DNA of 15,689 bases, taken from the IMG/VR virus record IMGVR_UViG_3300029009_000076, one strand, 5' to 3'. Origin of the DNA: a virus (taxonomy: Duplodnaviria > Heunggongvirae > Uroviricota > Caudoviricetes). A model generated the notes under the pieces. That model saw only the letters and a list, made by a program, of their open reading frames with translations. It had not been told where the DNA came from and made no database searches. The position numbers were made by a program, and so were the translations under genes. Shown here one piece after another: positions 1 to 15,689 of the stretch (positions are counted from its first letter, which is position 1; the number at the start of each line of letters is the position of its first letter).

Positions 1-603
1 TCAATCAGGCTTTATTCTGTTTCGCTGTAATTTTTTTACTCCTTCAAATGGTTTAGTTGATATAAATCCCGACTGATACGCAAAACGCAACAGCGAACAG
101 AGCAGGGCGATATAGTTATCAACTGTGCGCACGGTTCTTCCTTTTTTGTTGGATCTTGGATTATCCAGGTAAAGCGTTTCTCCATGCAGCAGTTCATTCC
201 GGTAGTTTAAGATATCGCTATAACGAATATGTGATATCGGGGTACTTTCACAAATTATTATTCTGAGTGTTTTTAATTGTGATTTCGTTTTCTTCATTGT
301 GTTTGTTGTTAACTCTGTCTCTTTAATTTTTGTCCAGATATCACAAAGCTCTCCGAACGTTTTTATGACTCTCGTTGTCACCATTTTTGCCCCAGTGCTG
401 GACTGGGGAAAACGTCTTAAATACTCAAATTCACCGGAGTTTATTTCATGAACTATCAGCGATCTTAAATTTCCGGCCTTTTTAATATTACTGTTTGTAA
501 TCTCCCAGCCTTTTAATGTTTCCCGACATCGTTTTCCTCGAAACATGAACCAGATGCGAATGTATCTACCTCTAATCTCGACACCTGTTGGTAATTTAGA
601 CAT
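1..603 (-). CDS. intR: Prophage integrase, N-terminal 200 aa only (catalytic C-terminal part lies left of the window)
   Basis: ORF starts with ATG at 603-601 and runs off the left edge; N-terminus MSKLPTGVEIRGRYIRIWF... recognised as the Rac integrase arm-binding region; immediately followed by an excisionase-like gene. Confidence 0.8.
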   Translation of the reverse strand: MSKLPTGVEIRGRYIRIWFMFRGKRCRETLKGWEITNSNIKKAGNLRSLIVHEINSGEFEYLRRFPQSSTGAKMVTTRVIKTFGELCDIWTKIKETELTTNTMKKTKSQLKTLRIIICESTPISHIRYSDILNYRNELLHGETLYLDNPRSNKKGRTVRTVDNYIALLCSLLRFAYQSGFISTKPFEGVKKLQRNRIKPD

Positions 604-604
604 A

Positions 605-820
605 TCATGAGTCTTTGATAAACTGATTTATCTTTGGATAGTTGTACCAGATAATCCCTCGTTTGCTGTCTGGCTTACCTAAAGGAGATACTCGTTTGAA
701 GTGGAAGCCCTCCACCCAACAGTTCTGGCGGTATGCTTCAATTTGTCTGGCCCCCAGACCAGTGCGAAGCATCAGGCCGTATTCAACCATCCACTCTTCA
801 TTAAAGATTACTTGTGCCAT
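605..820 (-). CDS. xisR: Excisionase-like protein, 71 aa
   Basis: Protein [32 protein letters not shown]... recognised as Rac YdaQ/XisR; stop TGA (605-607) lies 1 nt from the int start codon. The ORF track extends the start to 844; the internal ATG at 820 matches the 71-aa form. Confidence 0.7.
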
Positions 821-898
821 CGCATCACCTCTGGCAGGCGCCAATGTTAGACTGAAATTGACGCCCGATGTTGATTATTAATAATCAGCTATGAAGTT

Positions 899-1108
899 TT
901 AATTTGAATACAATGCAATTCTCGAGGACTGAAGTTTCTCGCAATTAAAATTTATCAGTTTTACTTTCTGCTCTCTGGAAACGCCTGCTTCTTTTTTACC
1001 TGAGAGCATTTTTTCGCATTCTGATTTCGTTAGTTTAGATTTTGAATATCTTGTCCAGTTAGTAGGAGTGCCACCTTCCTTTTCAATAGTGGCGGTAATT
1101 TTATACAT
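899..1108 (-). CDS. ydaC: Small Rac protein YdaC-like, 69 aa
   Basis: MYKITATIEKEGGTPTNWTRYSKSKLTKSECEKMLSGKK... recognised as YdaC; start ATG at 1108-1106 overlaps the 3' end of ralR by 8 nt. Confidence 0.65.
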   Translation of the reverse strand: MYKITATIEKEGGTPTNWTRYSKSKLTKSECEKMLSGKKEAGVSREQKVKLINFNCEKLQSSRIALYSN

Positions 1109-1295
1109 GAACACCTCCATTATTATTTCCAGTGGTTCGTTTATTCCATCTTTCGAGTGCTTCTTTTTCACTTCCACCATAACCGGTTCGGGATTCGCAT
1201 CCGTTACACTTCGCTCGGTAATATCCTGAAATGGCTTTCACCGTTACTGATGGACAACCACAAAATGGACATGGTTTAACATTGTCATATCTCAT
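1101..1295 (-). CDS. ralR: Restriction-alleviation protein / type I toxin RalR (Lar family), 64 aa
   Basis: MRYDNVKPCPFCGCPSVTVKAISGYYRAKCNGCESRTGYGGSEKEALERWNKR... has the Cys-rich Lar-type motif; start ATG at 1295-1293. Confidence 0.8.
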   Translation of the reverse strand: MRYDNVKPCPFCGCPSVTVKAISGYYRAKCNGCESRTGYGGSEKEALERWNKRTTGNNNGGVHV

Positions 1296-1351
1296 AATTT
1301 TTCTCATAAAAAATATTTCAAGTTGGCGGTGCATTACACCGCCAGGCTGAA

Positions 1352-2161
1352 TTATTCCTCTGAATTATCGATTACACTGTATTCCCCGGTTAATACAGAG
1401 GAATCTGCAGGATCGATTGTCAGTGGTTCCTTTTCATCCATTGATACTGCACGCTGGATCTCAATTGATACGGGCAGATATTTGAACAGGCGACGAATAG
1501 CCGTTTTCTTTGCCATTTCTTCCCAGTGAGTTACCCACGGCCCGTTATTACCAGCTTTACTCAGGCTGCGCACCAGCTCAATCTGTTTGCGCGTCATAAC
1601 TTCAAACTGAGTACCTCCGTCTTTCAGTCTTGCGACAGCATAGACGTGGGTAACCGGGGCATCTTCGTTTTCTCCCGGGCGGTGTATTAACTTTTCATCA
1701 AGGCCAAATTCGAAGCTAAACTCGTCACCTTCACGGACAACACGGGCTGACAGGCTGGCGATTTGACCAGAACGGCGAGCCAGATCAATCATGCCGCGAT
1801 AGCCAATGATTAGCTGAACGTTCTTTTTACCGCTCTTTTCGTTTTTATTACCAAAAGGCAGTAAATATGCATGACCGAGGGCGCTACCTGGCTCAAGTCC
1901 GAGCTGTGAACACTGTACGATCGCACTGACAAAACTCATAGTGTCACAGTTTCCTAACGCCGGAACTTTACGAATTTCTGTGGTGGCGATACGGATCATA
2001 CGTTCAGCCGTCATATGGCGTGGAAGAGCTGCTGCCAGTTGCTCTTTCATTGATGGCTGGTTAATAAAACTAATCACGTCGCTATTTTTAACTGCTGCTG
2101 GTGCACGGTTTCCCTGAGTTTTTTGCAGATCGGCTTTTGCGATTGGTGGTTGCTTAGTCAT
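1352..2161 (-). CDS. recT: Recombinase RecT (single-strand annealing protein), 269 aa
   Basis: Protein from [24 protein letters not shown]... recognised as RecT; start ATG at 2161-2159 overlaps the recE stop by 8 nt. The ORF track's upstream extension to 2218 is not used. Confidence 0.9.
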
Positions 2162-4754
2162 TTGCATATTCCTTAGCCCAGCGGGGCAGTGATAATGTCT
2201 TAATAGCTGGCCATTCATCGGTATTCAGGCAGTCAGACAGGGTTCGCAGATTGCGGTGATATTCCTGTTGACCTGCCAGTTTTGCTTCTTCGCCCATCAT
2301 GAAAATTTCAACCGGATAACGTCCGCATTCAATAGTTGTGCTGGCAACCAGAAAAACGAAAGTTGGCTGCACTCCAAACTGTGCTTCATAACCGTCACTG
2401 TAGAATGCATCCTGAACGTGATAGCGGTAGTCGTAATAAGCGGTTTTGAATCGTTGAATATCCGCCGTAGTTTTCACGTCCATGATCCAGTGAAATTCAG
2501 GGATAATTTTGTCCGGACGGCACCGACACAAAATTCCTGTTTCAGGATCTTCCCAGTAAATTGATGATTCAGCGTGTCCGGCGCTTTCAACAAGCCATTG
2601 CCCCAGCGGCAAAGCCATAACGCTTTGATACATGAGTTCAATTTTCCGGCCTTCTTCCGCAGTGATAACCGTTTTTCCTGTGCTTGCGCATTCCATCAGA
2701 AACGCTTTCTCTTCTTCTTTTCCGGCGTTTGTACGGCGGTTAAATTCAGGTGCTACGATAAAGCGGTTACTGAATTCTTCCGGTTCAAGTACCCGGCAGT
2801 GGAAAGCAGTTCCTAAATCGAGCGTTTTTGTCTTTGTGGTGTCCACGGGGGCATTTTTACGCCACAAATATAGTGCCGGAGTATCAGCAATGTCATCGAG
2901 CTGAGACTTACTGATACCGGGACCCGCGTGGTAATTCTCATTCGAAATTCCGTAATAAATACCTGGCTCTATGTCTTCTACGATTACGGGATCTGCGACT
3001 TCGCCAGTTTCATCACTGCAATCGCGATGCGGATCGCTGCCAGCATTCTCATTGTGCGGATGTTCAGCGCCTTCCATTTCCTCCGGATCATTTTCCTTAG
3101 CTTCAACCTGACTCTCTTCATCGAATGTTTCCTGGTATGTTGCGTCGCCCATCACCGCACCACAGTCAGGGCAGTTATCCCCGCCAGTCTGGCCGCAGGC
3201 ATTGCAGGCTATTTCCGGTTCCTGTTGCACTACTGGCTCAGGTTGATTCATATCTGGGCTGGTTTTTTCCGTTTCTGGCTGGTTCTGGTACACACAATCG
3301 CGAGTCTGGATCCCCTTTACCCATTTCGGATCGTTCGGGTCGCTAATTCCGTCAACAAATTCACCACGTGATGCAGCAAGCAATTTATCGGCATCGACAG
3401 GATTTTTTGATGGAATGTTTTTCCGGGCTTCATGGAGTTCTGCCCGCAGTTCCTGATATTTCGCATCAACAGAATTTACCTGTGACTGAGCATCCAGCGG
3501 CTGCGTGTCCTGATGATGTTCAGTTGCGTCCGGTTCCATTGTTTCAGCCTCTCCCTGTTCAACTGCCGTTGTTCCAGATGGTTGCGGTTTTTCTTCATCA
3601 TCCTGTTTTCCTTCTTCTGTTACTCGCTGCGGCATCGGGGCAGAGGAGCGACCGCAGGCAATATCCACGATTTCCGGATCAGGGTTGGCATGATCGGTTT
3701 CAGTCAGTACTTTGTTCAGATATTCAGTGACGTGCGCGGGGATGACCTCGATCCCAATTGGTGCTTCTTTTACGGACGCAACCACGATGGCGCGGGAATA
3801 ATCCAGCCCGCCAGGCATGGTGATGAATTTGTCGCGGAAAACAGAAAAGGGCGGTTTATTTTCAGCGATAATTTCCTCAATGCGTTTAGCGTGTGCCGGA
3901 TGAAGGTTATAGATGTCCAGATCCATTGAACGGGCCAGTACGCCAGTGGCTACGTCGCGCGCCAGTGACGTCAGATCGTGTACGAAACCTTCGCCGCGAT
4001 CGGTGAGGTTTCCGCCGCCAGCATTAGCACCGGAAGCCGTGCGAGTGATGTGTGAAACACGATTACCCTTCATCCACTCTTTTGTCAGCAGTCCTCGATC
4101 GGTGTAGTCAGCGTTCAGGTATGCTTCGAAAAAAGCAGTTATCAGTCCCAGGTTTGAATTACCAGGATTAGGGAAAACTTTGTCAGTGTCACGAACCAGT
4201 TTGTGGAGTTCGCGAATTTCCAGCGGGTCGAGCAGGCTGGTTTTGTGGGAAACAGCCAGGGCAGTAACAGCCGGTAGTTCTTCAGCCCGAGCAATGTGTA
4301 ATGCCTGGAGTCCGTCGCGTGAAACGTGCGTTACCGGTTTTTCGCTGCCGTGTTGAGCAAGCCAACGAATGGGCAGTTCCTGGCCAGAAATTGGGAGTAG
4401 CATATTCTCCTCAATCTCAGTCATGTCTTCGCCGTTGACGTTGGTATTGCCTTGATAGTGAGCGTTGTCTGGTGCTGCTCCCGGTTTTAGTTCCCATGTC
4501 ATGGAGTCTTTGCTGAGTTGATAGCGTTCACTCCAGGTAAAATCGATCTCACCTTCAGCGGGCAGGTCATTAACGACAGGAAAATTCGTGGCAACAGCTT
4601 TAAAATAGCTGCTCAGTTTTTTACCTGACTTAACGATCAGGTAGTCCAGAGTGGCACAGGTCGATTCAAAATCGTTGCTTGCCCACAGGACGACGTCAGG
4701 TTCACCGGATGATTTTTTCGCTTTCCGTAACAGGAAGAGTGGTTTTGTGCTCAT
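2154..4754 (-). CDS. recE: Exodeoxyribonuclease VIII RecE, 866 aa
   Basis: Full 866-aa [32 protein letters not shown]...; acidic central region and C-terminal nuclease domain as in RecE; sits directly upstream of recT in one operon. Confidence 0.9.
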
Positions 4755-4825
4755 TGTTTTTTAACCTCAACTCAGATTAAAATTCGTTTTGTTCAGTGAA
4801 TGATCTTGCCGGATACACACTGTTC

Positions 4826-4857
4826 ATAGCCTGCGCCATACGCAGGCTATTTCTTTC
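4826..4857 (+). terminator. Intrinsic-terminator-like hairpin oriented on the plus strand, between recE and racC
   Basis: Perfect 10-bp stem ATAGCCTGCG / CGCAGGCTAT with 5-nt loop (4826-4850) followed by TTCTTTC; the T-tract is only on the plus-strand side. Confidence 0.4.
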
Positions 4858-5131
4858 AGATTTCACCTTTTAATTTCATTGCAATTAGAGTTGCCAGAAA
4901 TTCGGCTTTTTTTTCTGCGGGCAGATTCTTTCCGATATGCACCAGGCACATTTTTTTGACACCTTCATCAAGTGTTTTTACGTTGCCTGATGGACCATCG
5001 ATATCAACCACAGTGAATGGGGTTTCTTTATTTTCTGTTTTAATTACGTAGCCAATGCGCTTTCCTTCCAGATTCACCTCGTGAACAATGTCATCGGTAG
5101 TTACAACAGTGGCTTCATAATTGGTAATCAT
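4856..5131 (-). CDS. racC: RacC, 91 aa
   Basis: MITNYEATVVTTDDIVHEVNLEGKRIGYVIKTENKETPF... recognised as RacC; ATG at 5131-5129 is preceded (on the minus strand) by AAGGAG. The ORF track's longer start at 5179 is not used. Confidence 0.75.
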   Translation of the reverse strand: MITNYEATVVTTDDIVHEVNLEGKRIGYVIKTENKETPFTVVDIDGPSGNVKTLDEGVKKMCLVHIGKNLPAEKKAEFLATLIAMKLKGEI

Positions 5132-5205
5132 GTTTTTCTCCTTAATTAAGGTTGAGCGAATACCTGCCATTTCTGGCATAAATTCAGTTTCGAATAGTCA
5201 ATTAA

Positions 5206-5376
5206 TTAAAGTTCATGTGCCATCTGGTCTTTTTCGGCACAAGCTTCACTGCAATATTTTCTCGGTTCGTCTTTTGATAAAATCCCGTGCATGAAGTGAA
5301 GCATTCTTTCAATAGCTTTGCTTTCTTCAACGTCTTTTTTGCAAAGGTGGTAAGCACATTTTATTTTCTTAGTCAT
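5206..5376 (-). CDS. ydaE: Small Cys-rich (probable zinc-binding) protein YdaE, 56 aa
   Basis: Not in the ORF track (too short). Reverse-strand translation [56 protein letters not shown]; start ATG at 5376-5374 shares 1 nt with the kilR stop. Confidence 0.7.
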   Translation of the reverse strand: MTKKIKCAYHLCKKDVEESKAIERMLHFMHGILSKDEPRKYCSEACAEKDQMAHEL

Positions 5377-5597
5377 CACCATGACTCCGCCTTTACAGGT
5401 AAACCATCACGACCGAGGAAGACTTTAATCATGCGGTCAGTAATGCATGTTTTTGTGGTCAGGTTACGAATATATAGTTTTCGCTTTTTAATATTGTTTG
5501 CCGAGGCAATATATGTCCGGCCTTCATGAAGAACATAATCGCCAGGAGTCACACACTGACGTGGTATTTCATCAGTTCCGAAGTGATGTGCAATCAT
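5376..5597 (-). CDS. kilR: KilR, cell-division (FtsZ) inhibitor toxin, 73 aa
   Basis: [46 protein letters not shown]... recognised as KilR; GGAGA Shine-Dalgarno upstream of ATG 5597-5595. Confidence 0.8.
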
Positions 5598-6038
5598 AAT
5601 TATCTCCATTTTTACAAATGAACTTTGTTGATGCGGTGCCTGGTGCCTCCAGGTGACTGCAACCAGTTAACAATTACAGTCGGCTTTCCCACCCAAACCA
5701 ATAAGGACTAACATGACTTTTAACTGTGCCACGTGCGCTTAGCCGCATTCACCGCATCACAAAATTCACTTTAAAAAGGGCGGACATCAGCCGAACTTCA
5801 AGAAAAAAACTGATGCCGCCAGGACTACACACAGCAATGTCGTTATTTACAACCGGAGGCGCACTCCCACCATTTAAATTTAACAGACAAGACCGACTCT
5901 TTATGGATATCGGAAATGCGCCTTCGTGTTGTGCCCGGTTTTATTTCACCACCTCCGGGCTTCGGTGGTCTCGGCTATACCCCTACAGCGAGAGCTTGTG
6001 TTAACATTTCAATACCCTTACAGTTGAGAGTTATTGAT

Positions 6039-6527
6039 ATGTTGGATGTATTTACTCCATTGTTGAAACTTTTTGCTAACGAGCCACTCGAAAGACTTAT
6101 GTATACGATTATCATTTTTGGTCTCACTCTCTGGCTGATACCGAAAGAGTTTACTGTCGCATTCAATGCTTATACTGAAATACCTTGGCTCTTTCAGATT
6201 ATCGTTTTTGCCTTTTCTTTCGTGGTCGCCATTTCCTTCTCAAGATTGCGAGCGCATATTCAAAAGCATTATTCATTACTACCAGAGCAACGAGTATTGC
6301 TTCGTTTATCTGAGAAAGAAATCGCTGTATTTAAAGATTTCCTTAAAACAGGAAATCTTATTATCACTTCTCCTTGCCGTAACCCGGTTATGAAAAAATT
6401 AGAACGGAAGGGCATCATTCAACATCAGAGTGATAGCGCAAACTGTTCTTATTATCTCGTCACCGAAAAATACTCCCATTTTATGAAGTTATTCTGGAAC
6501 AGCAGGAGTAGACGTTTTAATCGTTAG
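6039..6527 (+). CDS. sieB: Superinfection exclusion protein SieB, 162 aa
   Basis: MLDVFTPLLKLFANEPLERLMYTIIIFGLTLWLIPKEF... with hydrophobic N-terminal helices; ATG at 6039. The ORF track's upstream extension from 5916 is not used. Confidence 0.8.
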   Translation: MLDVFTPLLKLFANEPLERLMYTIIIFGLTLWLIPKEFTVAFNAYTEIPWLFQIIVFAFSFVVAISFSRLRAHIQKHYSLLPEQRVLLRLSEKEIAVFKDFLKTGNLIITSPCRNPVMKKLERKGIIQHQSDSANCSYYLVTEKYSHFMKLFWNSRSRRFNR

Positions 6528-6679
6528 CTTACTGTGTGCTTCTCCAACCATCGGCGCGCACCAGTTTCGGTTTTAAATGTTTTGCTTTTGGTATACGTCA
6601 TGGCAGTGAACGTTCCATCCTGGTTGGGGAACACGCCGCACACCAGGGATTCGTTGTTGCCGAGGTCGATTTTTTGCAT
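6524..6679 (-). CDS. ydaF: Small Rac protein YdaF-like, 51 aa
   Basis: Not in the ORF track. Reverse translation MQKIDLGNNESLVCGVFPNQDGTFTAMTYTKSKTFKTETGARRWLEKHTVS; GAGGTG Shine-Dalgarno before ATG 6679-6677; 3' end overlaps the sieB stop convergently. Confidence 0.6.
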   Translation of the reverse strand: MQKIDLGNNESLVCGVFPNQDGTFTAMTYTKSKTFKTETGARRWLEKHTVS

Positions 6680-6689
6680 TTTTCGCACC

Positions 6690-6824
6690 TCACATCTTGT
6701 TGTTGCGGATAGAGGCTTCTGCTTGCCAGAGATCCCAGTCGTTGCTACGTAAAGCCTGCACAGCCGGGCTGTAAGTGATACCGCAACAATCCATCAAATA
6801 CTGAACTACTTCGTAATGCACCAT
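6690..6824 (-). CDS. ydaG: Small Rac protein YdaG-like, 44 aa
   Basis: C-terminal 44 aa of ORF 6690..6983: MVHYEVVQYLMDCCGITYSPAVQALRSNDWDLWQAEASIRNNKM; GGGGAGAGA Shine-Dalgarno before ATG 6824-6822. Confidence 0.6.
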   Translation of the reverse strand: MVHYEVVQYLMDCCGITYSPAVQALRSNDWDLWQAEASIRNNKM

Positions 6825-6840
6825 CTTATCTCTCCCCTTA

Positions 6841-7242
6841 ACGCCGGGTATATGGACCATCTGTCGTGGTGCCACAATGGTGGATGGTAAGCCCGTCATA
6901 CCGGGAATGAGGCTGTCGAAGGAAAAATGCGACCAGGTTAACGCTATTGAACGTGATAAGGCGCTGGCATGGGTGGAGCGCAATATTAAAGTACCACTGA
7001 CCGAACCACAGAAAGCGGGTATAGCGTCATTTTGTCCCTATAACATTGGCCCCGGTAAGTGTTTCCCGTCGACGTTTTATAAGCGGCTGAATGCCGGTGA
7101 TCGTAAGGGTGCATGCGAGGCGATTCGCTGGTGGATAAAAGATGGTGGGCGCGATTGCCGCATACGTTCAAATAACTGCTATGGACAGGTTATTCGTCGT
7201 GACCAGGAAAGCGCATTAGCCTGTTGGGGGATAGATCAGTGA
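6841..7242 (+). pseudogene. 5'-truncated phage lysozyme-type endolysin (R-like); roughly the N-terminal 40 aa, including the likely catalytic/SAR region, are missing
   Basis: Frame is open from 6817; the part ...PGIWTICRGATMVDGKPVIPGMRLSKEKCDQVNAIERDKALAWVERNIKVPLTEPQKAGIASFCPYNIGPGKCF...ACWGIDQ aligns by eye to lambdoid prophage lysozymes (RrrD-like), but no N-terminal region or plausible start is present; stop TGA 7240-7242 overlaps the Rz start. Confidence 0.65.
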
Positions 7243-7703
7243 GCAGAGTCGCCGCGATTATTTATGCTCTGGTTATCTGCATCATCGTCTGCCTGTCATG
7301 GGCTGTTAATCATTACCGTGATAACGCCACCGCCTACAAAGAGCAGCGCGACAAAAATGCCAGAGAACTGAAGCTGGCGAACGCGGCAATTACTGACATG
7401 CAGATGCGTCAGCGTGATGTTGCTGCGCTCGATGCAAAATACACGAAGGAGTTAGCTGATGCGAAAGCTGAAAATGATGCTCTGCGTGATGATGTTGCCG
7501 CTGGTCGTCGTCGGTTGCACATCAAAGCAGTCTGTCAGTCAGTGCGTGAAGCCACCACCGCCTCCGGCGTGGATAATGCAGCCTCCCCCCGACTGGCAGA
7601 CACCGCTGAACGGGATTATTTCACCCTCCGGGAACGACTGGTAATGATGCAGGCCCAACTTGAAGGTGCTCAGCAATACATAACCGAACAGTGTTTAAAG
7701 TAA
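7239..7703 (+). CDS. rzpR: Rz-type i-spanin (inner-membrane spanin), about 154 aa, apparently intact
   Basis: [60 protein letters not shown]... is near-identical in pattern to lambda Rz; likely GTG start at 7239 overlapping the endolysin stop (the track offers TTG at 7224). Confidence 0.8.
7459..7644 (+). CDS. rzoR: Rz1-type o-spanin lipoprotein, 61 aa, embedded in the +1 frame of Rz
   Basis: [52 protein letters not shown]...: signal peptide with lipobox ...VVGC and a proline-rich mature part; AAGGAG Shine-Dalgarno at 7446-7451. Confidence 0.8.
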
Positions 7704-7840
7704 AATCTTAACTACAATATGATTCATTTTGATGATTGTTTCATAAGGAACAGTGAAGTAAGATCTAAGAGGAGTTAAATTTTATACAGTATAATCATAA
7801 TATTGCAGCAAGGTGGTTATAATTGAAAGAATATTTAGAT

Positions 7841-9298
7841 ATGAATACATCTCATGTAAGAGTTGTTACTCATATGTGTGGGTTCCTGGTTTGGCTCTAT
7901 AGTCTTTCAATGTTGCCACCAATGGTTGTAGCATTGTTTTATAAAGAAAAAAGCCTATTCGTTTTCTTTATAACTTTCGTTATATTTTTTTGCATTGGTG
8001 GCGGAGCGTGGTATACAACTAAGAAATCTGGCATTCAATTACGTACCCGTGATGGGTTTATTATAATTGTAATGTTTTGGATTTTGTTTTCTGTTATTAG
8101 TGCATTCCCTTTATGGATTGACTCAGAACTTAATTTAACGTTCATTGATGCTCTGTTTGAAGGGGTTTCTGGAATAACAACAACAGGAGCAACTGTAATT
8201 GATGATGTTAGTTCATTACCTCGGGCATATTTGTACTATCGGTCACAGTTAAATTTTATAGGTGGTTTAGGAGTTATTGTTCTGGCGGTTGCTGTATTGC
8301 CATTATTGGGTATTGGTGGTGCAAAGCTTTATCAGTCAGAAATGCCGGGGCCATTTAAGGATGACAAACTCACTCCCCGCCTGGCCGATACGTCACGGAC
8401 ACTGTGGATAACTTATTCTTTATTAGGTATTGCTTGTATTGTCTGTTATAGACTTGCAGGAATGCCTTTGTTTGATGCTATTTGTCACGGGATTTCCACA
8501 GTTTCGCTTGGTGGTTTCTCAACTCATAGCGAGAGTATCGGATATTTTAATAACTATTTGGTTGAGCTGGTGGCTGGTTCTTTTTCCCTGCTATCGGCTT
8601 TCAACTTCACTCTTTGGTATATTGTTATTAGCAGGAAAACGATAAAACCTTTAATCAGAGATATTGAACTTCGTTTCTTTCTGTTAATAGCCTTAGGGGT
8701 GATCATTGTTACCTCTTTCCAGGTCTGGCATATAGGTATGTATGACTTGCATGGAAGTTTTATTCATTCGTTTTTTCTTGCCAGCTCCATGCTCACTGAT
8801 AATGGTTTAGCTACGCAGGATTATGCAAGCTGGCCCACGCACACGATAGTGTTTTTGCTGTCGTCAAGTTTCTTTGGGGGATGTATAGGTTCAACTTGTG
8901 GTGGAATTAAGTCACTTCGATTTCTTATACTTTTCAAACAAAGCAAACACGAGATAAATCAGCTTTCTCATCCCAGAGCGTTGTTGAGTGTAAATGTAGG
9001 AGGGAAGATAGTTACAGATCGTGTAATGAGGTCTGTATGGAGTTTCTTTTTTCTTTATACTCTCTTCACGGTGTTTTTTATACTGGTGTTAAATGGTATG
9101 GGATATGATTTTCTTACATCATTTGCAACAGTGGCTGCATGTATTAATAATATGGGATTAGGTTTTGGGGCTACTGCATCGTCATTCGGAGTGCTTAATG
9201 ACATTGCAAAATATTTAATGTGCATAGCTATGATTCTTGGTCGCCTTGAAATTTATCCTGTTATTATATTGTTTTCAGGTTTTTTTTGGCGCTCCTAA
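7841..9298 (+). CDS. trkG: Potassium uptake protein TrkG (TrkH/TrkG family), 485 aa; prophage moron
   Basis: MNTSHVRVVTHMCGFLVWLYSLSMLPP... is a polytopic membrane protein recognised as TrkG; gene and flanks are visibly AT-rich compared with neighbouring phage genes. The track's TTG start at 7823 is an alternative (see findings). Confidence 0.85.
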   Translation: MNTSHVRVVTHMCGFLVWLYSLSMLPPMVVALFYKEKSLFVFFITFVIFFCIGGGAWYTTKKSGIQLRTRDGFIIIVMFWILFSVISAFPLWIDSELNLTFIDALFEGVSGITTTGATVIDDVSSLPRAYLYYRSQLNFIGGLGVIVLAVAVLPLLGIGGAKLYQSEMPGPFKDDKLTPRLADTSRTLWITYSLLGIACIVCYRLAGMPLFDAICHGISTVSLGGFSTHSESIGYFNNYLVELVAGSFSLLSAFNFTLWYIVISRKTIKPLIRDIELRFFLLIALGVIIVTSFQVWHIGMYDLHGSFIHSFFLASSMLTDNGLATQDYASWPTHTIVFLLSSSFFGGCIGSTCGGIKSLRFLILFKQSKHEINQLSHPRALLSVNVGGKIVTDRVMRSVWSFFFLYTLFTVFFILVLNGMGYDFLTSFATVAACINNMGLGFGATASSFGVLNDIAKYLMCIAMILGRLEIYPVIILFSGFFWRS

Positions 9299-9384
9299 TA
9301 TATGGCTGATTTATAATTGTGAGTTTAATATTATATTGACTCACTCATTGATCCAATACCTAACTTTACCAGCAACACCTCCGC

Positions 9385-9420
9385 CCCCAGTAGCACTGGC
9401 TGCTGGGGTGCGTTTTATTC
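9385..9420 (+). terminator. Putative intrinsic terminator downstream of trkG
   Basis: 10-bp stem (9385-9394 / 9399-9408, one G-U pair) with 4-nt loop, followed by TGCGTTTTATTC. Confidence 0.45.
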
Positions 9421-9435
9421 ATAAAGCAAGGCTGT

Positions 9436-10224
9436 ATGAGCGAGAAATTAAAGATAGTCTATCGCCCATTACAAGAATTGTCACCGTATGCGCACAACGC
9501 CAGGACGCACAGTACTGAGCAGGTGGCACAACTGGTAGAAAGTATTAAGCAATTCGGCTGGACTAATCCGGTGCTGATTGACGAAAAGGGCGAAATTATT
9601 GCGGGTCACGGTCGTGTTATGGCGGCTGAAATGCTCAAAATGGATTCTGTTCCGGTCATTGTTCTGTCTGGCCTGACGGATGAGCAGAAAAAGGCGTACC
9701 GCCTGGCAGATAATCGCCTACCAATGAATGCTGGCTGGGATGAAGATCTGTTGCGGATGGAGCTGTCGGACCTAATCAATGCTGATTTTGATGTCTCCCT
9801 GACAGGCTTCGGCCCGACAGAAATTGATGAACTGTTGACGGATGTTTTGCCCGGTACAGGAAATAAGGAGGAGCCGTATACGACGAAAATTGATACGCCT
9901 GTTTATGAGCCGTCGGGCGGTAAACCGGATATCAGTGAACTGTACGACGATACGAAAACTCAGGAGCTGATCAGCCGGATACGTTCGGCGTCCCTTGATC
10001 CTGATATTGAGAAATTCCTCCTGTGTGCGGCAGAACGTCACACGGTGTTTAATTTCAGCAGAATTGCGGACTATTACGCTCATGCCCCCGCTGAAATTCA
10101 GTGCCTTTTCGAGGAGTCGGCGCTGGTGATCATTGATTATCAGCAGGCTATTGAAAATGGATTTGTCCGAATGACGCAGCGCATGGTGGCGATCATGCAT
10201 AGCGGGGAGGAGGAATATGCGTGA
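9436..10224 (+). CDS. ParB/Srx-like nuclease-domain protein, 262 aa (apparent full-length counterpart of the short K-12 Rac ynaK)
   Basis: N-terminal region IVYRPLQELSPYAHNARTHSTEQVAQLVESIKQFGWTNPVLIDEKGEIIAGHGRVMAAEMLKMDSVPVIVL has the ParB N-terminal domain pattern (GHGR in the position of the ParB arginine box); the C-terminal half is of unknown type; stop overlaps the next gene's start. Confidence 0.7.
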   Translation: MSEKLKIVYRPLQELSPYAHNARTHSTEQVAQLVESIKQFGWTNPVLIDEKGEIIAGHGRVMAAEMLKMDSVPVIVLSGLTDEQKKAYRLADNRLPMNAGWDEDLLRMELSDLINADFDVSLTGFGPTEIDELLTDVLPGTGNKEEPYTTKIDTPVYEPSGGKPDISELYDDTKTQELISRIRSASLDPDIEKFLLCAAERHTVFNFSRIADYYAHAPAEIQCLFEESALVIIDYQQAIENGFVRMTQRMVAIMHSGEEEYA

Positions 10225-11149
10225 TGATTTTTGCGCCTTTATTCTGACTCACGGGCGACCGGACAAAGTTCTGACTTACCGGACGTTGCGTCGTGCTGGC
10301 TATACCGGGAAAATTTTTATCGTTGTTGATGATGAAGATAAGACACGGCATCAGTACATGGCTGAATTTGGTGAACAGGTGCTGGTATTTTCCAAAGCCG
10401 ATATTGCCAGTCGTTTTGACGAAGCCGATAATTTTGGTGACCGCCGCTCAATTTTTTACGCCCGTAATGCCTGTTTCGACCTGGCAAAACTGGTCGGGTG
10501 TAAATACTTCATTCAGCTCGATGATGATTATCACGAGTTCCAGTTTCGGGTGGATCGCAACTATGACCAGGCCTATTTCCCGATAAGGAAACTGGATGCG
10601 ATCCTTTCTGAAATGCTGGCGTATTACGAATCAATACCCGCGCTTTCCATCGCTATGTCGCAGGGCGGGGATTTTCTTGGTGACAATGGCGGCCATGCTT
10701 CGTGGGTGAAACGCAAGGCAATGAACAGCTTTATCTGTTCGGTTGATCGACCGTTCTCATTCATGGGGCGCATTAACGAGGATGTGAATACGTACACGAA
10801 TCTCGGTCGCCGTGGTGAATTGTTTATGACGATCGGTGCTGTCCAGTTAGGGCAGAAACAGACGCAGAAAAACAGCGGCGGAATGACCGAGCTGTATCTG
10901 GATTCCGGGACCTACGTTAAAAGTTTTTATTCCGTCATGTATGCGCCGTCGTGCGTAAAAATCTCACTGATGGGCGCCAGCCATAAACGCATTCACCATC
11001 AGGTCACCTGGAACAACGCTGCAGTAAAAATCCTTCACGAAAAATACAGGAAGAAGACACCCTGCATATTAATGGGGGTGACAAATGATTCCGTATTCGA
11101 AAGTCGAGTCTCTGGCAGCGTGCCGGATGACTGCACAACAAATCGCTGA
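10217..11149 (+). CDS. Hypothetical protein, 310 aa, with GT-A-like glycosyltransferase motifs (tentative)
   Basis: Strong Shine-Dalgarno GGGGAGGAGG at 10204-10213; start ATGCGTGA overlaps the ParB-like stop. Motifs FCAFILTHGRPD ... GKIFIVVDDED ... KYFIQLDDDYHEF resemble the N-terminal strand, acidic strand and DxD motif of GT-A-fold nucleotide-sugar transferases. No methyltransferase or PP-loop motifs seen. Confidence 0.55.
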   Translation: MRDDFCAFILTHGRPDKVLTYRTLRRAGYTGKIFIVVDDEDKTRHQYMAEFGEQVLVFSKADIASRFDEADNFGDRRSIFYARNACFDLAKLVGCKYFIQLDDDYHEFQFRVDRNYDQAYFPIRKLDAILSEMLAYYESIPALSIAMSQGGDFLGDNGGHASWVKRKAMNSFICSVDRPFSFMGRINEDVNTYTNLGRRGELFMTIGAVQLGQKQTQKNSGGMTELYLDSGTYVKSFYSVMYAPSCVKISLMGASHKRIHHQVTWNNAAVKILHEKYRKKTPCILMGVTNDSVFESRVSGSVPDDCTTNR

Positions 11150-11336
11150 CGTTCTGGATGTTGATCTGAACCGACTGAAAGAAAATCGGGAAGCAATGAC
11201 AAATTTTTACGCGTCCATCCGTAAGGGCAGAGCGAAAGGTGAAGCCGAGCTACGGGCGGCATTGTTTAAGCTTGCCAGAAAAGGGGATGCCTTTGCCCTG
11301 CGCGAACTACTCAGGGTGGATAAAAATCAGGACTAA
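11085..11336 (+). CDS. Small helix-turn-helix-like protein, 83 aa (possibly DNA-packaging associated)
   Basis: GGGGGTG Shine-Dalgarno before ATG 11085; segment MTAQQIADVLDVDLNRLKENR looks like an HTH; overlaps the 3' end of the upstream gene; lies directly upstream of the terminase genes. Confidence 0.45.
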   Translation: MIPYSKVESLAACRMTAQQIADVLDVDLNRLKENREAMTNFYASIRKGRAKGEAELRAALFKLARKGDAFALRELLRVDKNQD

Positions 11337-11470
11337 CTGATGAGCAGACCGGACTGGGGGGCGTTGCAGCAGGAGTATATTGCTGAATACACCCGCTCCG
11401 GTATATCTCCGGTGGCATGGTGTGAAGCAATCAGTACCAGAAACGCTATACCGCAGACCTGGATTTACTG

Positions 11471-12049
11471 GTGAGTCAGTTGATGGCCATTGTCCAGGCC
11501 GACCCCAATCAGTTGGCACAATTTCGCCGTGTTAACTGCCGTTATTGCTGGGGCGAGAATCATCACTACCAGTGGCGCGATATAGCAGAATTCGATAAGG
11601 CAGCGGCGCAGGCCTCCAGAGATGGCAAACCCGAGCCGGAATATGGTGGCCTTGGCTTTGTTGATAACGCCATACCCAATCCGGACTGCCCGAAGTGCTG
11701 CGGTGAGGGAACGGGGCAGCTTTATATGGCTGATACCACTCTGCTTGATGGGGAAGCGCGGCAATTATATGCAGGGGCAAAGCTCGGAAAATTTGGTGTT
11801 GAGATCCTGCTGGAGGATAAGGCTGCCGCCCGGCGTGAATTGTTGCGTTTGCTTGCTGCTGGTGGGGCTTTATGTGCAGATAAGCGGCTACAGGAACTGG
11901 AAATTGAACGGCGCAGAATGGAAAACCAGAAGCTGCGCAAAGAGATCGAAACGGTGGAAGATAATGAACATCCCCAACCTGTGGCGATCAATATTAATGT
12001 GGTTGATGCCAGAGTAAGGAGTGATGAAGATGATCTCTCCGACGCTTAA
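11471..12049 (+). CDS. Putative terminase small subunit, 192 aa as given in the ORF track (possibly the 3' part of a frame-disrupted gene)
   Basis: Position immediately upstream of, and overlapping, the terminase large subunit; Cys4 cluster (CRYC ... CPKCC) and charged coiled-coil-like C-terminus (LQELEIERRRMENQKLRKEIE). The only start is GTG; the frame is open from 11426 and a 44-aa ATG ORF (11340-11474) overlaps in another frame. Confidence 0.5.
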   Translation: MSQLMAIVQADPNQLAQFRRVNCRYCWGENHHYQWRDIAEFDKAAAQASRDGKPEPEYGGLGFVDNAIPNPDCPKCCGEGTGQLYMADTTLLDGEARQLYAGAKLGKFGVEILLEDKAAARRELLRLLAAGGALCADKRLQELEIERRRMENQKLRKEIETVEDNEHPQPVAININVVDARVRSDEDDLSDA

Positions 12050-13049
12050 TGTGCCTCAGGCGCGATTTCTTTCAATGCCCCATAAATTTAAAGCCTATAT
12101 TGCTGGTTTTGGCTCGGGCAAAACATGGGTTGGGTGTGGCGGCATATGCAAGGGGATTTGGGAGCATCCAGGTATAAATCAGGGATATTTTGCGCCAACG
12201 TATCCCCAAATTCGCGATATTTTTTACCCTACAGTGGAAGAAGTTGCTGCTGACTGGGGATTGAACGTAAAAATTAATGAGGGAAATAAAGAGGTTCACT
12301 TTTATTACGGACGCCAGTATCGGGGAACCACTATCTGCAGATCGATGGAGAAGCCACAAACGATCGTCGGTTTCAAAATTGGTAATGCGTTGGTGGATGA
12401 ACTGGACATTTTGCCGAAGGAAAAAGCCAGAACGGCGTGGCGCAAGATAATTGCGCGTATGCGTTATAAGATTGATGGACTTCGCAACGGTATTGACGTT
12501 ACAACCACGCCGGAAGGATTCAAATTTGTCTACGAGCAGTTTGTTAAAGCCGTGCGTGAAAAAACAGAGCTGGCCTCACTGTATGGTCTGGTGCAGGCAT
12601 CTACTTTCGATAATGAAAAGAACCTGCCAGCAGATTACATTCCTTCGCTTCTTGAATCATACCCTCCAGAGCTGATTAAAGCCTATCTGCGAGGACAGTT
12701 TACTAACCTGACAAGTGGTACTGTTTACCATCAGTTTGACCGGAAACTGAATAATTGCGAAGAAGTGGAGCAGCCAGGGGAGCCGATTTATATTGGGATG
12801 GATTTTAACGTTGGAAAGATGGCGGGAATCGTCCATGTGCTGCGTTTGGGGCTTCCATGTGCGGTAACTGAAATCATCAATGCCTACGATACGCCGGATA
12901 TGATCCGCATCATTAAAGAACGCTTCTGGCCGTATGACGGGCATGATTACCGGAAAGTGAGGGAGATTTATATTTATCCAGATGCTTCCGGAGATTCCAG
13001 AAAATCAAGTAACGCAAGTACGACGGATATACCCGGATCGCAACAGTAA
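12030..13049 (+). pseudogene. Terminase large subunit, ATPase domain only; truncated at the start of the nuclease domain
   Basis: Walker A AGFGSGKT and Walker B-like ALVDELDIL; AAGGAG Shine-Dalgarno at 12016-12021; the ORF ends after IYIGMDFNVGK... at about 340 aa, whereas full-length large terminases have a C-terminal nuclease domain beyond this point. Confidence 0.7.
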
Positions 13050-13741
13050 GCGGTAATACATCCCTTATAACAGCCAAAGCTGAACAACAGGGCGAGTGGA
13101 CCTACTATGAGGCCACTTATACAGCTAATACGGACATTGATACCGTTAACTGTGCTTTTTATATGACAAATAAAATAAGTAATGAGCCATTCTATGATGA
13201 CTCAACATTAACCATGACGACGCCGCAAATTGAACTGGGCAATACGGCATCGTCATTTATTGTAACTACAATGCCAACAACACGCGCAAGTGATGTGGTT
13301 ACTATCCCCTCGGCGAATAACCTGTCAACACGGCCTTTTACAGTATTGTGCGAAGTAAGGAGGAACTGGAGTACACCGCCCAATGTTGCGCCAAGGATAT
13401 TTGATGTTGGAGGGCACAGTATTGATGATAATTATTTATCGCTGGGGTTTGTTTCAACAGGAAAGATAAGCGCCAACGTAGGAATGGTTCAGCCACAAAT
13501 TTCCTCAGATGGAGAAAGGTTCATTGTGGGTGTGAGAGCTAAATCTGATTTATCAGTAAATGCAATATGCAATGGTAATTATACAACAAACCTTAATGGT
13601 AAAATATTTGGAGTTACAGCAACATCGTACCGGTTTGGTGGGCAGACCGCAGCAGGAACGCGTCATTTGTTTGGACACATCAGAAATTTCAGAGTCTGGT
13701 TTAAAGAATTAAATGACAGGCAAATCAAGGAGGCAGTATGA
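13013..13741 (+). pseudogene. Phage tail / tail-fibre protein, 3' fragment
   Basis: Frame is open from 13013 with no plausible start (the track's ATG at 13163 is internal); Thr/Ser/Asn/Gly-rich beta-type sequence ...TYYEATYTANTDIDTVN ... GKIFGVTATSYRFGGQTAAGTRHLFGHIRNFRVWF...; position corresponds to the Rac tail-protein remnant. Family assignment is weak. Confidence 0.45.
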
Positions 13742-14016
13742 AAGATTTAACTTTGAAATTTCCTGGTAACAGAGAGTTTAAATCCTTCCTGTCATCTCTT
13801 GACTGGGAGGAAGATGAAGACCTCCAGAATAAACTGTTAGTCGATGAAATTGGTTTCACCTACACAGAAACAGGGGTAACTGAAGAGGGAGAACCTGTCT
13901 GTATCCGGAATAACGGTTATTTTGTCAACATTCGCATTCTTGATGACTTGTTTGATGTTTCTGTATTCTCTGATTATGTCGTGGAGCTGGAAACACCGCT
14001 TCGGGAATGGAGCTGA
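13738..14016 (+). CDS. Hypothetical acidic protein, 92 aa
   Basis: AAGGAGG Shine-Dalgarno at 13727-13733; ATGA overlap with the end of the tail-fragment frame; no recognisable motif. Confidence 0.5.
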   Translation: MKDLTLKFPGNREFKSFLSSLDWEEDEDLQNKLLVDEIGFTYTETGVTEEGEPVCIRNNGYFVNIRILDDLFDVSVFSDYVVELETPLREWS

Positions 14017-14028
14017 AAGGAGGAAATA

Positions 14029-14322
14029 ATGGATATAAGCCCCTTACTTCATGCACTTTGTGCTGTGGCTGCGCAGATACTGGTTGGTCTTTTTACCGGA
14101 AACTGGGCTTACGGAGCGATAGCCGGTTGTACGTTCTTCATTGCGCGTGAACATACCCAGGCAGAATATCGCTGGATTGAAATGTTCGGGCATGGCAAGC
14201 GAATGAATATGCCGTGGTGGGGCGGTTTTGATCCGCGCGCGTGGGATGTGGCAAGCCTGATGGATTTTGCTGTGCCGGTGGTGGCGTGTCTGCTGGTCTG
14301 GCTGTTGGTTAATCGTGGGTGA
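14029..14322 (+). CDS. Hypothetical small membrane protein, 97 aa, two or three predicted transmembrane segments
   Basis: Near-consensus Shine-Dalgarno AAAGGAGG at 14016-14023; hydrophobic stretches [34 protein letters not shown] and [18 protein letters not shown] with a Trp/Arg-rich loop between. Confidence 0.6.
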
Positions 14323-14329
14323 AAAAAGG

Positions 14330-14452
14330 TGGGCTGTATATGCAACGGAGGAAGAAACCTCGTTGCTGGAAGCATGGAAAAAGTATCGGGTATTGCTGAA
14401 CCGTGTTGATACGTCAACTGCACAGGATATTGAATGGCCAGCACTGCCGTAG
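14330..14452 (+). pseudogene. Tail fibre assembly protein (Tfa), 3' remnant of about 40 codons
   Basis: ...[39 protein letters not shown] matches the conserved C-terminus of lambdoid Tfa proteins as I recall it; no N-terminal part or start codon; begins immediately after the membrane-protein stop. Confidence 0.6.
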
Positions 14453-14548
14453 GGTAAAACATATAAATTCTATAATTAGATGTATCTTTCCATTTACGGC
14501 AAGGAAGGGGGCTTGGAAGACGTAAAGCATCTCACACCGAGATTATTT

Positions 14549-15139
14549 TTATATGTCAGGTGTCTGAAGTTTTGCTTTGGCTCTTAAAATGGTTTGCCGC
14601 GAGGTTTTGAATTCCCGGGCAATGGCACTTATACTTACACCTGACTTAATTCGTTCGAATACCACCTGTTTCTGTTCTTCATTTAACACAGGTGGTCGAC
14701 CAAAACGTTTCCCTGCGCCGCGGGCTCTTACTATCCCGGAATGAGTGCGTTCAAGTAAAAGGTCTCGTTCAAATTCAGCGACTGCTGAAATTACTTGCAT
14801 CATCATTTTTCCTGTTGGACTGGTCAGGTCAATGCCCCCCAATGCTAAGCAATGCACTCTGATACCTGTTTCGGTCAGTTGTTCCACTGTTTTCCTGATA
14901 TCCATTGCATTACAACCAAGGCGATCCAATTTTGTCACAATCAATTGATCACCACATTTCAGGCGAGCAAGCAACCGGTTAAAACCAGGACGCTCACTGG
15001 TTGCTGCTGAGCCACTAATGTGTTCTTCGATTATTTGCTGAGGTTTGATTTTAAAACCTGCACTTTCGATTTCCCGGCGTTGATTTTCGGTGGTCTGATC
15101 CAGCGTTGATATCCGACAGTAAGCAAAAATTTGAGACAT
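14549..15139 (-). CDS. pinR: Serine recombinase / DNA invertase Pin, 196 aa
   Basis: [29 protein letters not shown]... with catalytic Ser in the YCRIST motif and a C-terminal HTH; recognised as PinR. Confidence 0.9.
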
Positions 15140-15455
15140 AGTGAGACTCTATACGAAATTGGTGTTCATATCATAATGCATCTCAGAAAATAATTATGAT
15201 TATTTTTGTGCATATTTGTATGTACACGTTCGAAAATAAACGAATGCGTATGCAACCCCGTAATTTTGGTGAGACCCAAAATCGATTTTGTGAAAAATGG
15301 CTTTAACTCGGTTTGTTTTTCGAGTTCCGGGCGGACTCAAGGAAGAAGAATAGTGTTGCGTGTTATTTTAACCAGATTTCAAGTTGTTTGGTCGTGGAAA
15401 AGTGGAGCAAAATGTTGTTAAAGTGGAAAAATGATAAAAAAGTAAGTTTATTATA

Positions 15456-15689
15456 TTACATTTTACCATTTAAATTTTGGTTGTCTTTAAGAACTGATAT
15501 CGCTGTTTGTAATAATTCTTTGTTATCCAGCCATGATTTTTTCTTTATGTTTCCTTCAATGTAATCAAGCAATGTTCTGGTATTGATAGGTCTTCCCTGT
15601 TTTGCTACTTCCACTACAGCATCCCCTAGGATAATTCTTACTTCAGGAAGCTGCGCAGGGAACCACTTTAGGGTGTCTTTTGATTTCAT
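15456..15689 (-). CDS. ynaE: YnaE/YdfK-family small prophage protein, 77 aa; start codon at the window edge
   Basis: MKSKDTLKWFPAQLPEVRIILGDAVVEVAKQGRPINTRTLLDYIEGNIKK... recognised as YnaE/YdfK-like; ATG at 15689-15687. Confidence 0.65.
   Translation of the reverse strand: MKSKDTLKWFPAQLPEVRIILGDAVVEVAKQGRPINTRTLLDYIEGNIKKKSWLDNKELLQTAISVLKDNQNLNGKM

What the first reader, a model, noticed from the sequence alone, without database searches (positions are those of the whole stretch)
11340..11480. Terminase small subunit appears split across two reading frames
A 44-aa ATG-initiated ORF (11340-11474, MSRPDWGALQQEYIAEYTRSGISPVAWCEAISTRNAIPQTWIYW) with an HTH-like pattern ends inside the start of the 192-aa ORF, which has only a GTG start and whose frame is already open from 11426. 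This looks like one terminase small subunit gene (N-terminal HTH plus oligomerisation domain) disrupted by a single-base frameshift. No obvious slippery heptamer is present, so a programmed shift is unlikely.
Basis: seen in the sequence. Interest (0 to 1): 0.4.

Follow-up and report, generated by a model that had tools for sequence, protein, structure and literature searches.

The report
Deletion-broken terminase gene in Rac prophage
The two overlapping reading frames are the two ends of one phage DNA-packaging gene (small terminase) that lost 385 bases from its middle, an ordinary dead gene in a decaying Rac-type prophage of E. coli.

Summary
A 44-aa ATG ORF (11340-11474) overlaps a 192-aa GTG ORF (11471-12049) in the -1/+2 frame, and both are pieces of one terminase small subunit gene (terS). 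The proposed cause, a single-base frameshift, is wrong.

Intact Rac-type prophages and phages carry a 1095-nt, 364-aa terS as one ORF (852 of 5,426 complete E. coli genomes). Against these, the window lacks 385 bp (128 codons + 1 nt). The junction is a 4-nt microhomology, GCAA, at 11427-11430. Codons 1-30 survive in the first ORF and codons 159-364 in the second. Residues 31-158 are gone; from family knowledge these hold the rest of the N-terminal HTH, a basic linker and the Terminase_2-type DNA-binding helix-turn-helix.

The same junction occurs in five independent metagenome or read-archive assemblies, so it is a natural allele and not a sequencing error. The surrounding element is a degraded Rac prophage. 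Its terL is cut after the ATPase domain and fused to the inside of a tail-fibre gene, and portal, capsid and tail genes are absent.

There is no slippery heptamer and no conservation of the split. This is ordinary prophage decay: low interest, already-known kind.

The parts
11340..11430 (+). 5' remnant of terS: codons 1-30 of the 364-aa terminase small subunit (first half of the N-terminal HTH-like region)
   Evidence: 100% identical to L001 12341-12431. Protein alignment. PHROG 51 profile positions 1-33.
11427..11430 (.). Deletion junction: GCAA microhomology. It is present at both ends of the 385-bp segment in intact relatives, and one copy is retained here.
   Evidence: The two BLAST segments overlap by 4 nt. 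Three-way display of left flank, window and right flank. Chance of 4 nt or more of microhomology at a random junction is about 0.016.
11340..11474 (+). 44-aa ORF: 30 native terS residues plus a 14-residue out-of-frame tail, ending at TGA 11472-11474
11431..12049 (+). 3' remnant of terS: codons 159-364, in the -1/+2 frame relative to the 5' remnant. It holds CxxC (11537-11548) and CxxCC (11687-11701) motifs and a C-terminal charged helical tail. The ORF-finder start GTG 11471 and gene-caller start ATG 11483 are internal codons of the intact gene.
   Evidence: 100% identical at protein level to residues 159-364 of the intact protein. PHROG 51 profile positions 157-261 and PHROG 29114. Cys positions.
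12021..13049 (+). Truncated terL (Terminase_6N ATPase domain only). Homology to intact terL ends near 13031, and the sequence then continues into the interior of a tail-fibre gene.
   Evidence: Pfam Terminase_6N only; the intact relative is 433 aa, and in the relatives L004-L006 that form also carries Terminase_6C. Junction shown.
11085..11336 (+). Small upstream ORF (83 aa; annotated as 69 aa in relatives) that immediately precedes terS in all relatives. It marks the native terS start at 11340.

Best explanation
The window carries a terS pseudogene. An ancestral 1095-nt terminase small subunit gene of a Rac-type lambdoid prophage lost 385 bp between two GCAA tetranucleotides. The likely route is microhomology-mediated illegitimate recombination or replication slippage; this step is inferred. 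The deletion removes residues 31-158. From family knowledge these are the second half of the N-terminal HTH, the Lys/Ala/Gln-rich linker and the Terminase_2-type helix-turn-helix that recognises the packaging site. Because 385 is not a multiple of 3, the remaining 206 codons fall into the -1 frame. The first frame therefore stops after 44 codons, and ORF finders pick an internal GTG or ATG for the rest. No functional small terminase can be made. The loss has no consequence here, because the prophage has also lost the nuclease half of terL and all portal, head and tail genes. The allele is inherited in a natural E. coli lineage.
For: (1) The window aligns to an intact Rac-type prophage (E. coli 13P484A) as two collinear blocks, 7237-11430 and 11427-13034. 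They lie 385 bp further apart in the relative and overlap by 4 nt in the window; the sequences are shown.

(2) The intact gene is a single 364-aa CDS annotated as terminase small subunit. Residues 1-30 and 159-364 align at 100% to the two window frames, with nothing for 31-158.

(3) PHROG 51 covers the intact protein end to end (profile 1-261). In the window only profile positions 1-33 and 157-261 are present. Pfam Terminase_2 hits the intact protein (residues 123-321, 38.9 bits against a cutoff of 26.1) but neither fragment.

(4) 852 of 5,426 complete E. coli genomes hold at least 80% of the gene. In 34 of 40 sampled rows, at 92-100% identity, the match is one piece of exactly 1095 bp, and every sampled row covering at least 57% of the gene is annotated terS. 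Ten sequenced phages have the intact spacing.

(5) The identical junction is present in five independent assemblies, L003 and L007-L010. They are collinear with the window at 99.9-100%.

(6) L009 and L010 carry an additional TAC>TAG nonsense mutation in the terL remnant, which suggests continuing neutral decay.

(7) The context is Rac: recT, recE, kilR, sieB, trkG, pinR and ydfK. In L003 the flanking genes are uspF, ompN and ydbK.
Against: No complete E. coli genome, GTDB species representative or IMG/VR contig carries the junction, so the allele is rare. The polarity of the event (deletion, not insertion) rests on parsimony and on family profiles, not on a rooted phylogeny. The mechanism is inferred from a single 4-nt microhomology (chance about 0.016). 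Non-expression of the fragments was not tested.
Confidence: 0.95

Rival explanations
1. One reading: a single-nucleotide indel, real or a sequencing error, splits an otherwise complete terS.
For: The two frames differ by one position. A true 1-nt deletion allele (A6 to A5 at gene position 355) does exist in another sample, L005, so such lesions occur in this gene.
Against: The window gene region is 710 nt against 1095 nt in relatives, and 128 codons are absent. The flanks are 100% identical to relatives, with no extra indel. The same junction is found in five independent assemblies.
Confidence: 0.01
2. A misassembly artefact, such as a collapse, produced the junction in this one assembly.
For: The junction is absent from 5,426 complete E. 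coli genomes. Two related scaffolds (L004, L006) do show assembly problems in this gene, each with a 100-N gap.
Against: The identical junction appears in ENA and Logan assemblies from at least four separate projects, one of them a 32.6-kb contig at about 170x coverage, with no N. There are no long repeats at the endpoints that could cause a collapse.
Confidence: 0.02
3. Programmed -1 ribosomal frameshifting, or translational coupling, makes a functional shortened TerS (30 + 206 aa) or two cooperating polypeptides.
For: The ORFs overlap (GTGA at 11471-11474), and the downstream frame is -1 relative to the first.
Against: There is no XXXYYYZ heptamer in the overlap. The split is not conserved, because relatives have one ORF. 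The Terminase_2 DNA-binding region is missing. The element has no complete terL and no portal or capsid genes to serve.
Confidence: 0.01
4. The window form is ancestral, and the 385 bp in other genomes is an insertion.
For: None beyond formal symmetry of an indel.
Against: The extra segment is in frame and completes family profiles: PHROG 51 positions 34-156 and the Terminase_2 N-terminal part. It is present in hundreds of genomes at 92-100% identity and in phages. Without it the gene is frame-broken.
Confidence: 0.01
5. The C-terminal fragment (188-192 aa: presumed oligomerisation core, Cys motifs and helical tail) is expressed from the internal ATG 11483 and retains a function, for example as a dominant-negative decoy that poisons the terminase of superinfecting Rac-like phages.
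For: Gene callers predict the 188-aa product in several assemblies. A GGTGAG Shine-Dalgarno-like motif lies 8 nt upstream of ATG 11483. The fragment is 100% conserved relative to intact proteins.
Against: No promoter-like site lies nearby. Identity to intact genes is expected for a recent deletion and says nothing about selection. A sublineage is accumulating further inactivating mutations next door. The allele is rare.
Confidence: 0.03

Closest known systems
Terminase small subunit of Rac-type E. coli prophages and phages (e.g. WP_053287081.1 in E. coli 13P484A; phages vB_EcoS-666R9 and related; PHROG 51; Pfam Terminase_2 PF03592)
   Same: Same gene at the same position: after the ParB_N-family gene (ynaK-like), the TAGT-family gene and a small ORF, and overlapping the start of terL. 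The retained 30 + 206 codons are identical at protein level, and the retained DNA is 99.9-100% identical.
   Different: The window copy lacks 385 bp (residues 31-158, which from family knowledge include the Terminase_2 DNA-binding HTH) and is frame-shifted. It is a pseudogene, not a family member in the functional sense.
Cryptic prophage Rac of E. coli K-12 and B (recET, kilR, sieB, trkG, pinR; PMC4632033, PMC3105296)
   Same: Same element and same chromosomal locus. 79% of the window is about 100% identical to Rac of E. coli B REL606. It is defective in the same way, through loss of morphogenesis genes.
   Different: A different set of deletions. REL606 has lost terS and terL entirely and keeps a DUF6651-family gene (called a scaffold-like gene in the report; function inferred). 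The window keeps full-length ynaK, the TAGT-family gene, a broken terS and half of terL.
Programmed -1 frameshift genes of phages (e.g. lambda tail assembly chaperone G/GT) and IS1/IS3 transposases
   Same: Two overlapping ORFs in 0 and -1 frames.
   Different: No slippery heptamer, and the split is not conserved in homologues. It arose by a deletion of 3n+1 bases.

Membership tests
Terminase small subunit (Pfam Terminase_2 / PHROG 51) | Match to the family profile over its full length (N-terminal DNA-binding HTH plus oligomerisation core) | tested here: not met
   Neither fragment reaches Pfam Terminase_2. PHROG 51 profile positions 34-156 are missing. The intact relative meets both.
Terminase small subunit (Pfam Terminase_2 / PHROG 51) | Single uninterrupted ORF immediately upstream of, and overlapping, terL | tested here: not met
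   The position relative to terL is kept: terS ends at 12049 and terL starts at 12021/12030. The coding sequence is split over two frames, whereas relatives have one 1095-nt ORF.
Terminase small subunit (Pfam Terminase_2 / PHROG 51) | Binds the packaging site and activates TerL | not testable with these tools
   A biochemical property. It is expected to be lost because the HTH region is deleted (inference).
Programmed -1 ribosomal frameshift site | Slippery heptamer X XXY YYZ in the ORF overlap | tested here: not met
   No XXXYYYZ in 11400-11475.
Programmed -1 ribosomal frameshift site | The two-frame arrangement is conserved among homologues | tested here: not met
   852 genomes and 10 phages have a single-frame gene. 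Only the lineage with this deletion has the split.
Programmed -1 ribosomal frameshift site | Downstream stimulatory RNA structure | not tested
   Moot after the two failures above.
Defective (cryptic) Rac prophage | Rac gene set (intR, recT, recE, kilR, sieB, trkG, pinR, ydfK) at the ttcA/ompN chromosomal locus | tested here: met
   Window 4-9666 and 13029-15689 are 99.96-100% identical to REL606 Rac. L003 extends into uspF, ompN and ydbK.
Defective (cryptic) Rac prophage | Loss of genes needed to make virions | tested here: met
   terL is truncated and fused to a tail-fibre interior. There are no portal, capsid, tail tube or tape-measure genes, unlike the intact relative L001.
Microhomology-mediated deletion | A short direct repeat at both ends of the lost segment in the ancestral form, with one copy left at the junction | tested here: met
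   GCAA is at both ends in L001 and occurs once at window 11427-11430. No longer repeats at the endpoints.

The most novel reading that the evidence does not exclude
The retained C-terminal terS fragment (presumed oligomerisation core plus Cys motifs) might be expressed from the internal ATG 11483. It might then act as a dominant-negative subunit that interferes with packaging by superinfecting Rac-type phages, which would make it a domesticated anti-phage remnant and not junk.
Probability: 0.03. Interest if true: 0.5.

Novelty: already known. Interest (0 to 1): 0.08.

Why it matters
It matters mainly for annotation. The locus should be called a terS pseudogene with an internal deletion, not a frameshift or sequencing error, and not two hypothetical proteins. 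The 44-aa and 188/192-aa products that gene callers emit are artefacts. It is also a clean, datable marker (a unique GCAA junction) for one E. coli lineage carrying this Rac variant. Together with the terL::tail-fibre fusion and the different deletions in E. coli B, it shows how one prophage decays stepwise by short-homology deletions. It bears on no open biological question.

Tried and rejected
- Junction searches found nothing: a 40-mer in 5,426 complete E. coli genomes, 40-mer and 22-mer scans of GTDB species representatives, and a 22-mer scan of IMG/VR. The allele is rare, and the source genome is not in those sets.
- Exact-product look-ups of the 44-aa ORF and the GTG-started 192-aa ORF found nothing. 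Only the ATG-started 188-aa call is on record.
- L004 and L006 first looked like other deletion alleles of terS. They are 100-N scaffold gaps and were discarded.
- The 312-aa terS entries in the protein cluster are N-terminally shortened calls that start at internal Met53, not in-frame deletion variants.
- A PDB sequence search with the intact protein gave only chance-level hits.
- NCBIfam gave only a sub-threshold IS66 TnpA HTH match to residues 11-55. This is weak support for the N-terminal HTH and nothing more.
- The promoter and terminator scan was uninformative: no promoter-like site, and terminator-like sites at shuffle level.
- A repeat search found no long repeats at the deletion endpoints.
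- Two literature searches found nothing specific on this terS allele.
- Structure prediction was not run, because the intact relative is not an admissible input and a fold would not change the verdict.

Full report
**Observation**

An ATG ORF runs from 11340 to the TGA at 11472-11474 and encodes 44 aa. A 192-aa ORF starts at GTG 11471 and ends at 12049. Its frame is already open from 11426, directly after a TGA at 11423-11425. The second frame is -1 (+2) relative to the first. Both pieces carry significant similarity to terminase small subunits. Against PHROG 51, ORF44 matches profile positions 1-33 (E=1e-12) and ORF192 matches positions 157-261 (E=4e-13). The gap of about 120 profile positions between these two matches was the first sign that more than one base is missing.

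**What is really there**

A megablast of window 11000-12300 against 5,426 complete E. coli genomes found 906 genomes. The best hits were at 99.9% identity, but always as two pieces that span 1686 bp for a 1301-bp query. Ten sequenced Escherichia and Salmonella phages gave the same result.

I fetched the best hit, E. coli 13P484A, as locus L001. It is a complete Rac-type prophage late region. It carries trkG, a ynaK-like ParB_N-family gene, a 310-aa gene, a 69-aa gene, a 364-aa "terminase small subunit" (1095 nt), a 433-aa terL, and then (function inferred from family names) portal, head and tail genes.

Direct alignment shows two collinear blocks: window 7237-11430 = L001 8239-12431, and window 11427-13034 = L001 12813-14421. 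The window therefore lacks 385 bp of terS. The two blocks overlap by the four bases GCAA (11427-11430). These bases occur at both ends of the missing segment in L001.

At protein level, residues 1-30 of the intact protein equal the start of ORF44. Residues 159-364 equal the second frame at 100% identity. Residues 31-158 have no counterpart. Because 385 = 3x128 + 1, the deletion both removes 128 codons and shifts the frame. The last 14 residues of ORF44 are an out-of-frame reading of codons 159-172. GTG 11471 and ATG 11483 are internal codons of the native gene.

**What was lost**

Pfam Terminase_2 matches the intact protein at residues 123-321 (38.9 bits, cutoff 26.1) but matches neither window fragment. 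The deleted stretch has three parts:

- the second half of the N-terminal HTH-like region, where residues 11-55 weakly resemble the IS66 TnpA HTH, below threshold;
- a Lys/Ala/Gln-rich linker;
- the segment "VSDQQAKFAMLVAQGKKLVEAYRLAGYESEGNAAYVTASQLLRNPKVFRAI".

From established knowledge of the Terminase_2 family (SPP1/SF6 G1P-type small terminases), that last segment corresponds to the N-terminal DNA-binding helix-turn-helix.

What remains downstream is presumably the oligomerisation core, with CxxC...CxxCC motifs (11537-11548 and 11687-11701) and a charged helical tail. A functional small terminase cannot be produced from either fragment (inference).

**Deletion, not insertion, and not an artefact**

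The full 1095-nt gene is present in 852 complete E. coli genomes. In 34 of the 40 sampled rows, at 92-100% identity, it is one uninterrupted piece of exactly 1095 bp, and every sampled row covering at least 57% of the gene is annotated terS. The extra segment also completes two independent family profiles. The window form is therefore the derived one.

A 40-mer centred on the junction is absent from all 5,426 complete genomes. It is also absent from GTDB species representatives and from IMG/VR.

An exact look-up of the 188-aa product that starts at ATG 11483 found 12 contigs. Five of them (L003, L007, L008, L009, L010) carry exactly the same junction. They come from ENA and Logan assemblies of different runs, and one is a 32.6-kb contig at about 170x coverage. 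They are collinear with the window at 99.9-100% identity. The allele is therefore real and inherited in a natural lineage, and it is not a sequencing or assembly error.

Three other contigs looked different at first. L004 and L006 simply have 100-N scaffold gaps inside terS. L005 has a full-length terS with a 1-nt deletion in an A6 run.

**Context**

The window is a degraded Rac prophage. Positions 4-9666 and 13029-15689 are 99.96-100% identical to Rac of E. coli B REL606, covering intR, xisR, recT, recE, racC, kilR, sieB, trkG, pinR and ydfK. L003 continues into the chromosomal genes uspF, ompN and ydbK.

The terL remnant (12021-13049) keeps only the Terminase_6N ATPase domain. Homology to intact terL stops near 13031, where the sequence joins the interior of the tail-fibre gene with an ATA overlap. 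Portal, capsid, tail and tape-measure genes are absent.

REL606 has a different deletion pattern in the same region. Relative to REL606, the window also lacks about 1 kb of the lysis region, at 6847-6849. L009 and L010 have the same terS deletion plus a TAC>TAG nonsense codon in the terL remnant, which suggests that decay is continuing.

**Mechanism**

Three things are shown: a 385-bp loss bounded by a 4-nt direct repeat, the resulting frame shift, and loss of the Terminase_2 N-terminal region. One thing is inferred: that the deletion arose by microhomology-mediated illegitimate recombination or replication slippage. Four or more bases of junctional homology are expected by chance in only about 1.6% of random junctions, and no longer repeats exist at the endpoints. 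It is also inferred that the event is selectively neutral, because the element can no longer build virions.

**Rivals**

- A single-base frameshift or read error is excluded by the alignment and by the independent assemblies.
- Programmed -1 frameshifting is excluded in practice. There is no XXXYYYZ heptamer, the split is not conserved, and there is no packaging machinery to serve.
- An insertion in all other genomes is contradicted by the family profiles.
- One reading cannot be excluded. The C-terminal fragment might be expressed from ATG 11483, which has a GGTGAG motif 8 nt upstream, and might retain an activity such as poisoning the terminase of incoming relatives. Nothing supports this: there is no nearby promoter-like site, the allele is rare, and mutations continue to accumulate in the adjacent terL remnant.

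**Comparison with what is known, and verdict**

The locus works like any deletion-inactivated gene in a cryptic prophage. Rac is a long-known defective prophage of E. coli (PMC4632033, PMC3105296). Stepwise loss of morphogenesis genes is the expected fate of such elements (established knowledge). The gene is a remnant of a Terminase_2 / PHROG 51 small terminase, but it fails the membership tests for a functional member.

Its interpretation is partly right: one disrupted terS, and not a programmed shift. It is wrong on the lesion: a 385-bp deletion, not a 1-nt indel. Novelty: already known kind. Interest: low.

Noticed in passing
window 9436-11149: A full-length ParB_N-domain protein (ynaK-like, 262 aa) is followed, with overlapping stop and start, by a 310-aa TET-associated glycosyltransferase (Pfam TAGT, E=6e-36; PHROG 842). 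This looks like a DNA-modification pair just upstream of the terminase genes. No TET/JBP-family hit appeared among the few window ORFs that were scanned. ynaK is truncated in REL606 and 13P484A.
   Followed up: no
window 11085-11336: An 83-aa ORF (69 aa as annotated in relatives) directly upstream of terS matches PHROG 309 'terminase small subunit' over profile positions 145-218 of 319 (E=2.5e-22). It may be a second TerS-related small protein or a regulatory partner.
   Followed up: no
window 12021-13049 (junction about 13029-13031): terL is cut after its ATPase domain and fused to the interior of the tail-fibre gene, with a 3-nt ATA overlap. This large deletion removed the portal, head and tail genes.
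   Followed up: partly
window 6847-6849: Relative to Rac of E. coli B REL606, about 1 kb of the lysis region (essD, ydfR-like gene, start of lysozyme gene) is missing, with a GGT overlap at the junction. The lysozyme ORF here (6877-7242) is a remnant.
   Followed up: partly
L005 4029-5122 (Logan SRR15598624): A full-length terS with a 1-nt deletion in an A6 run (gene position 355) sits in an otherwise complete structural module. This is either a true frameshift allele or a homopolymer sequencing error.
   Followed up: partly
L009 about 3969 and L010 about 2143 (window-equivalent 12638): Contigs with the same 385-bp terS deletion also carry a TAC>TAG nonsense mutation in the terL remnant (Tyr203*). 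This suggests further decay within the lineage.
   Followed up: yes
window 11537-11701: The surviving C-terminal half of TerS has CxxC and CxxCC motifs about 47 residues apart. This looks like a zinc-ribbon, which I do not recall as a described feature of characterised Terminase_2 small terminases (the comparison is from my own knowledge and was not tested).
   Followed up: no
window 7244-7343: Ten of the 12 differences between the window and the otherwise identical contig L003 cluster in 100 bp of the Rz/lysis gene region. This suggests a small recombination patch.
   Followed up: no
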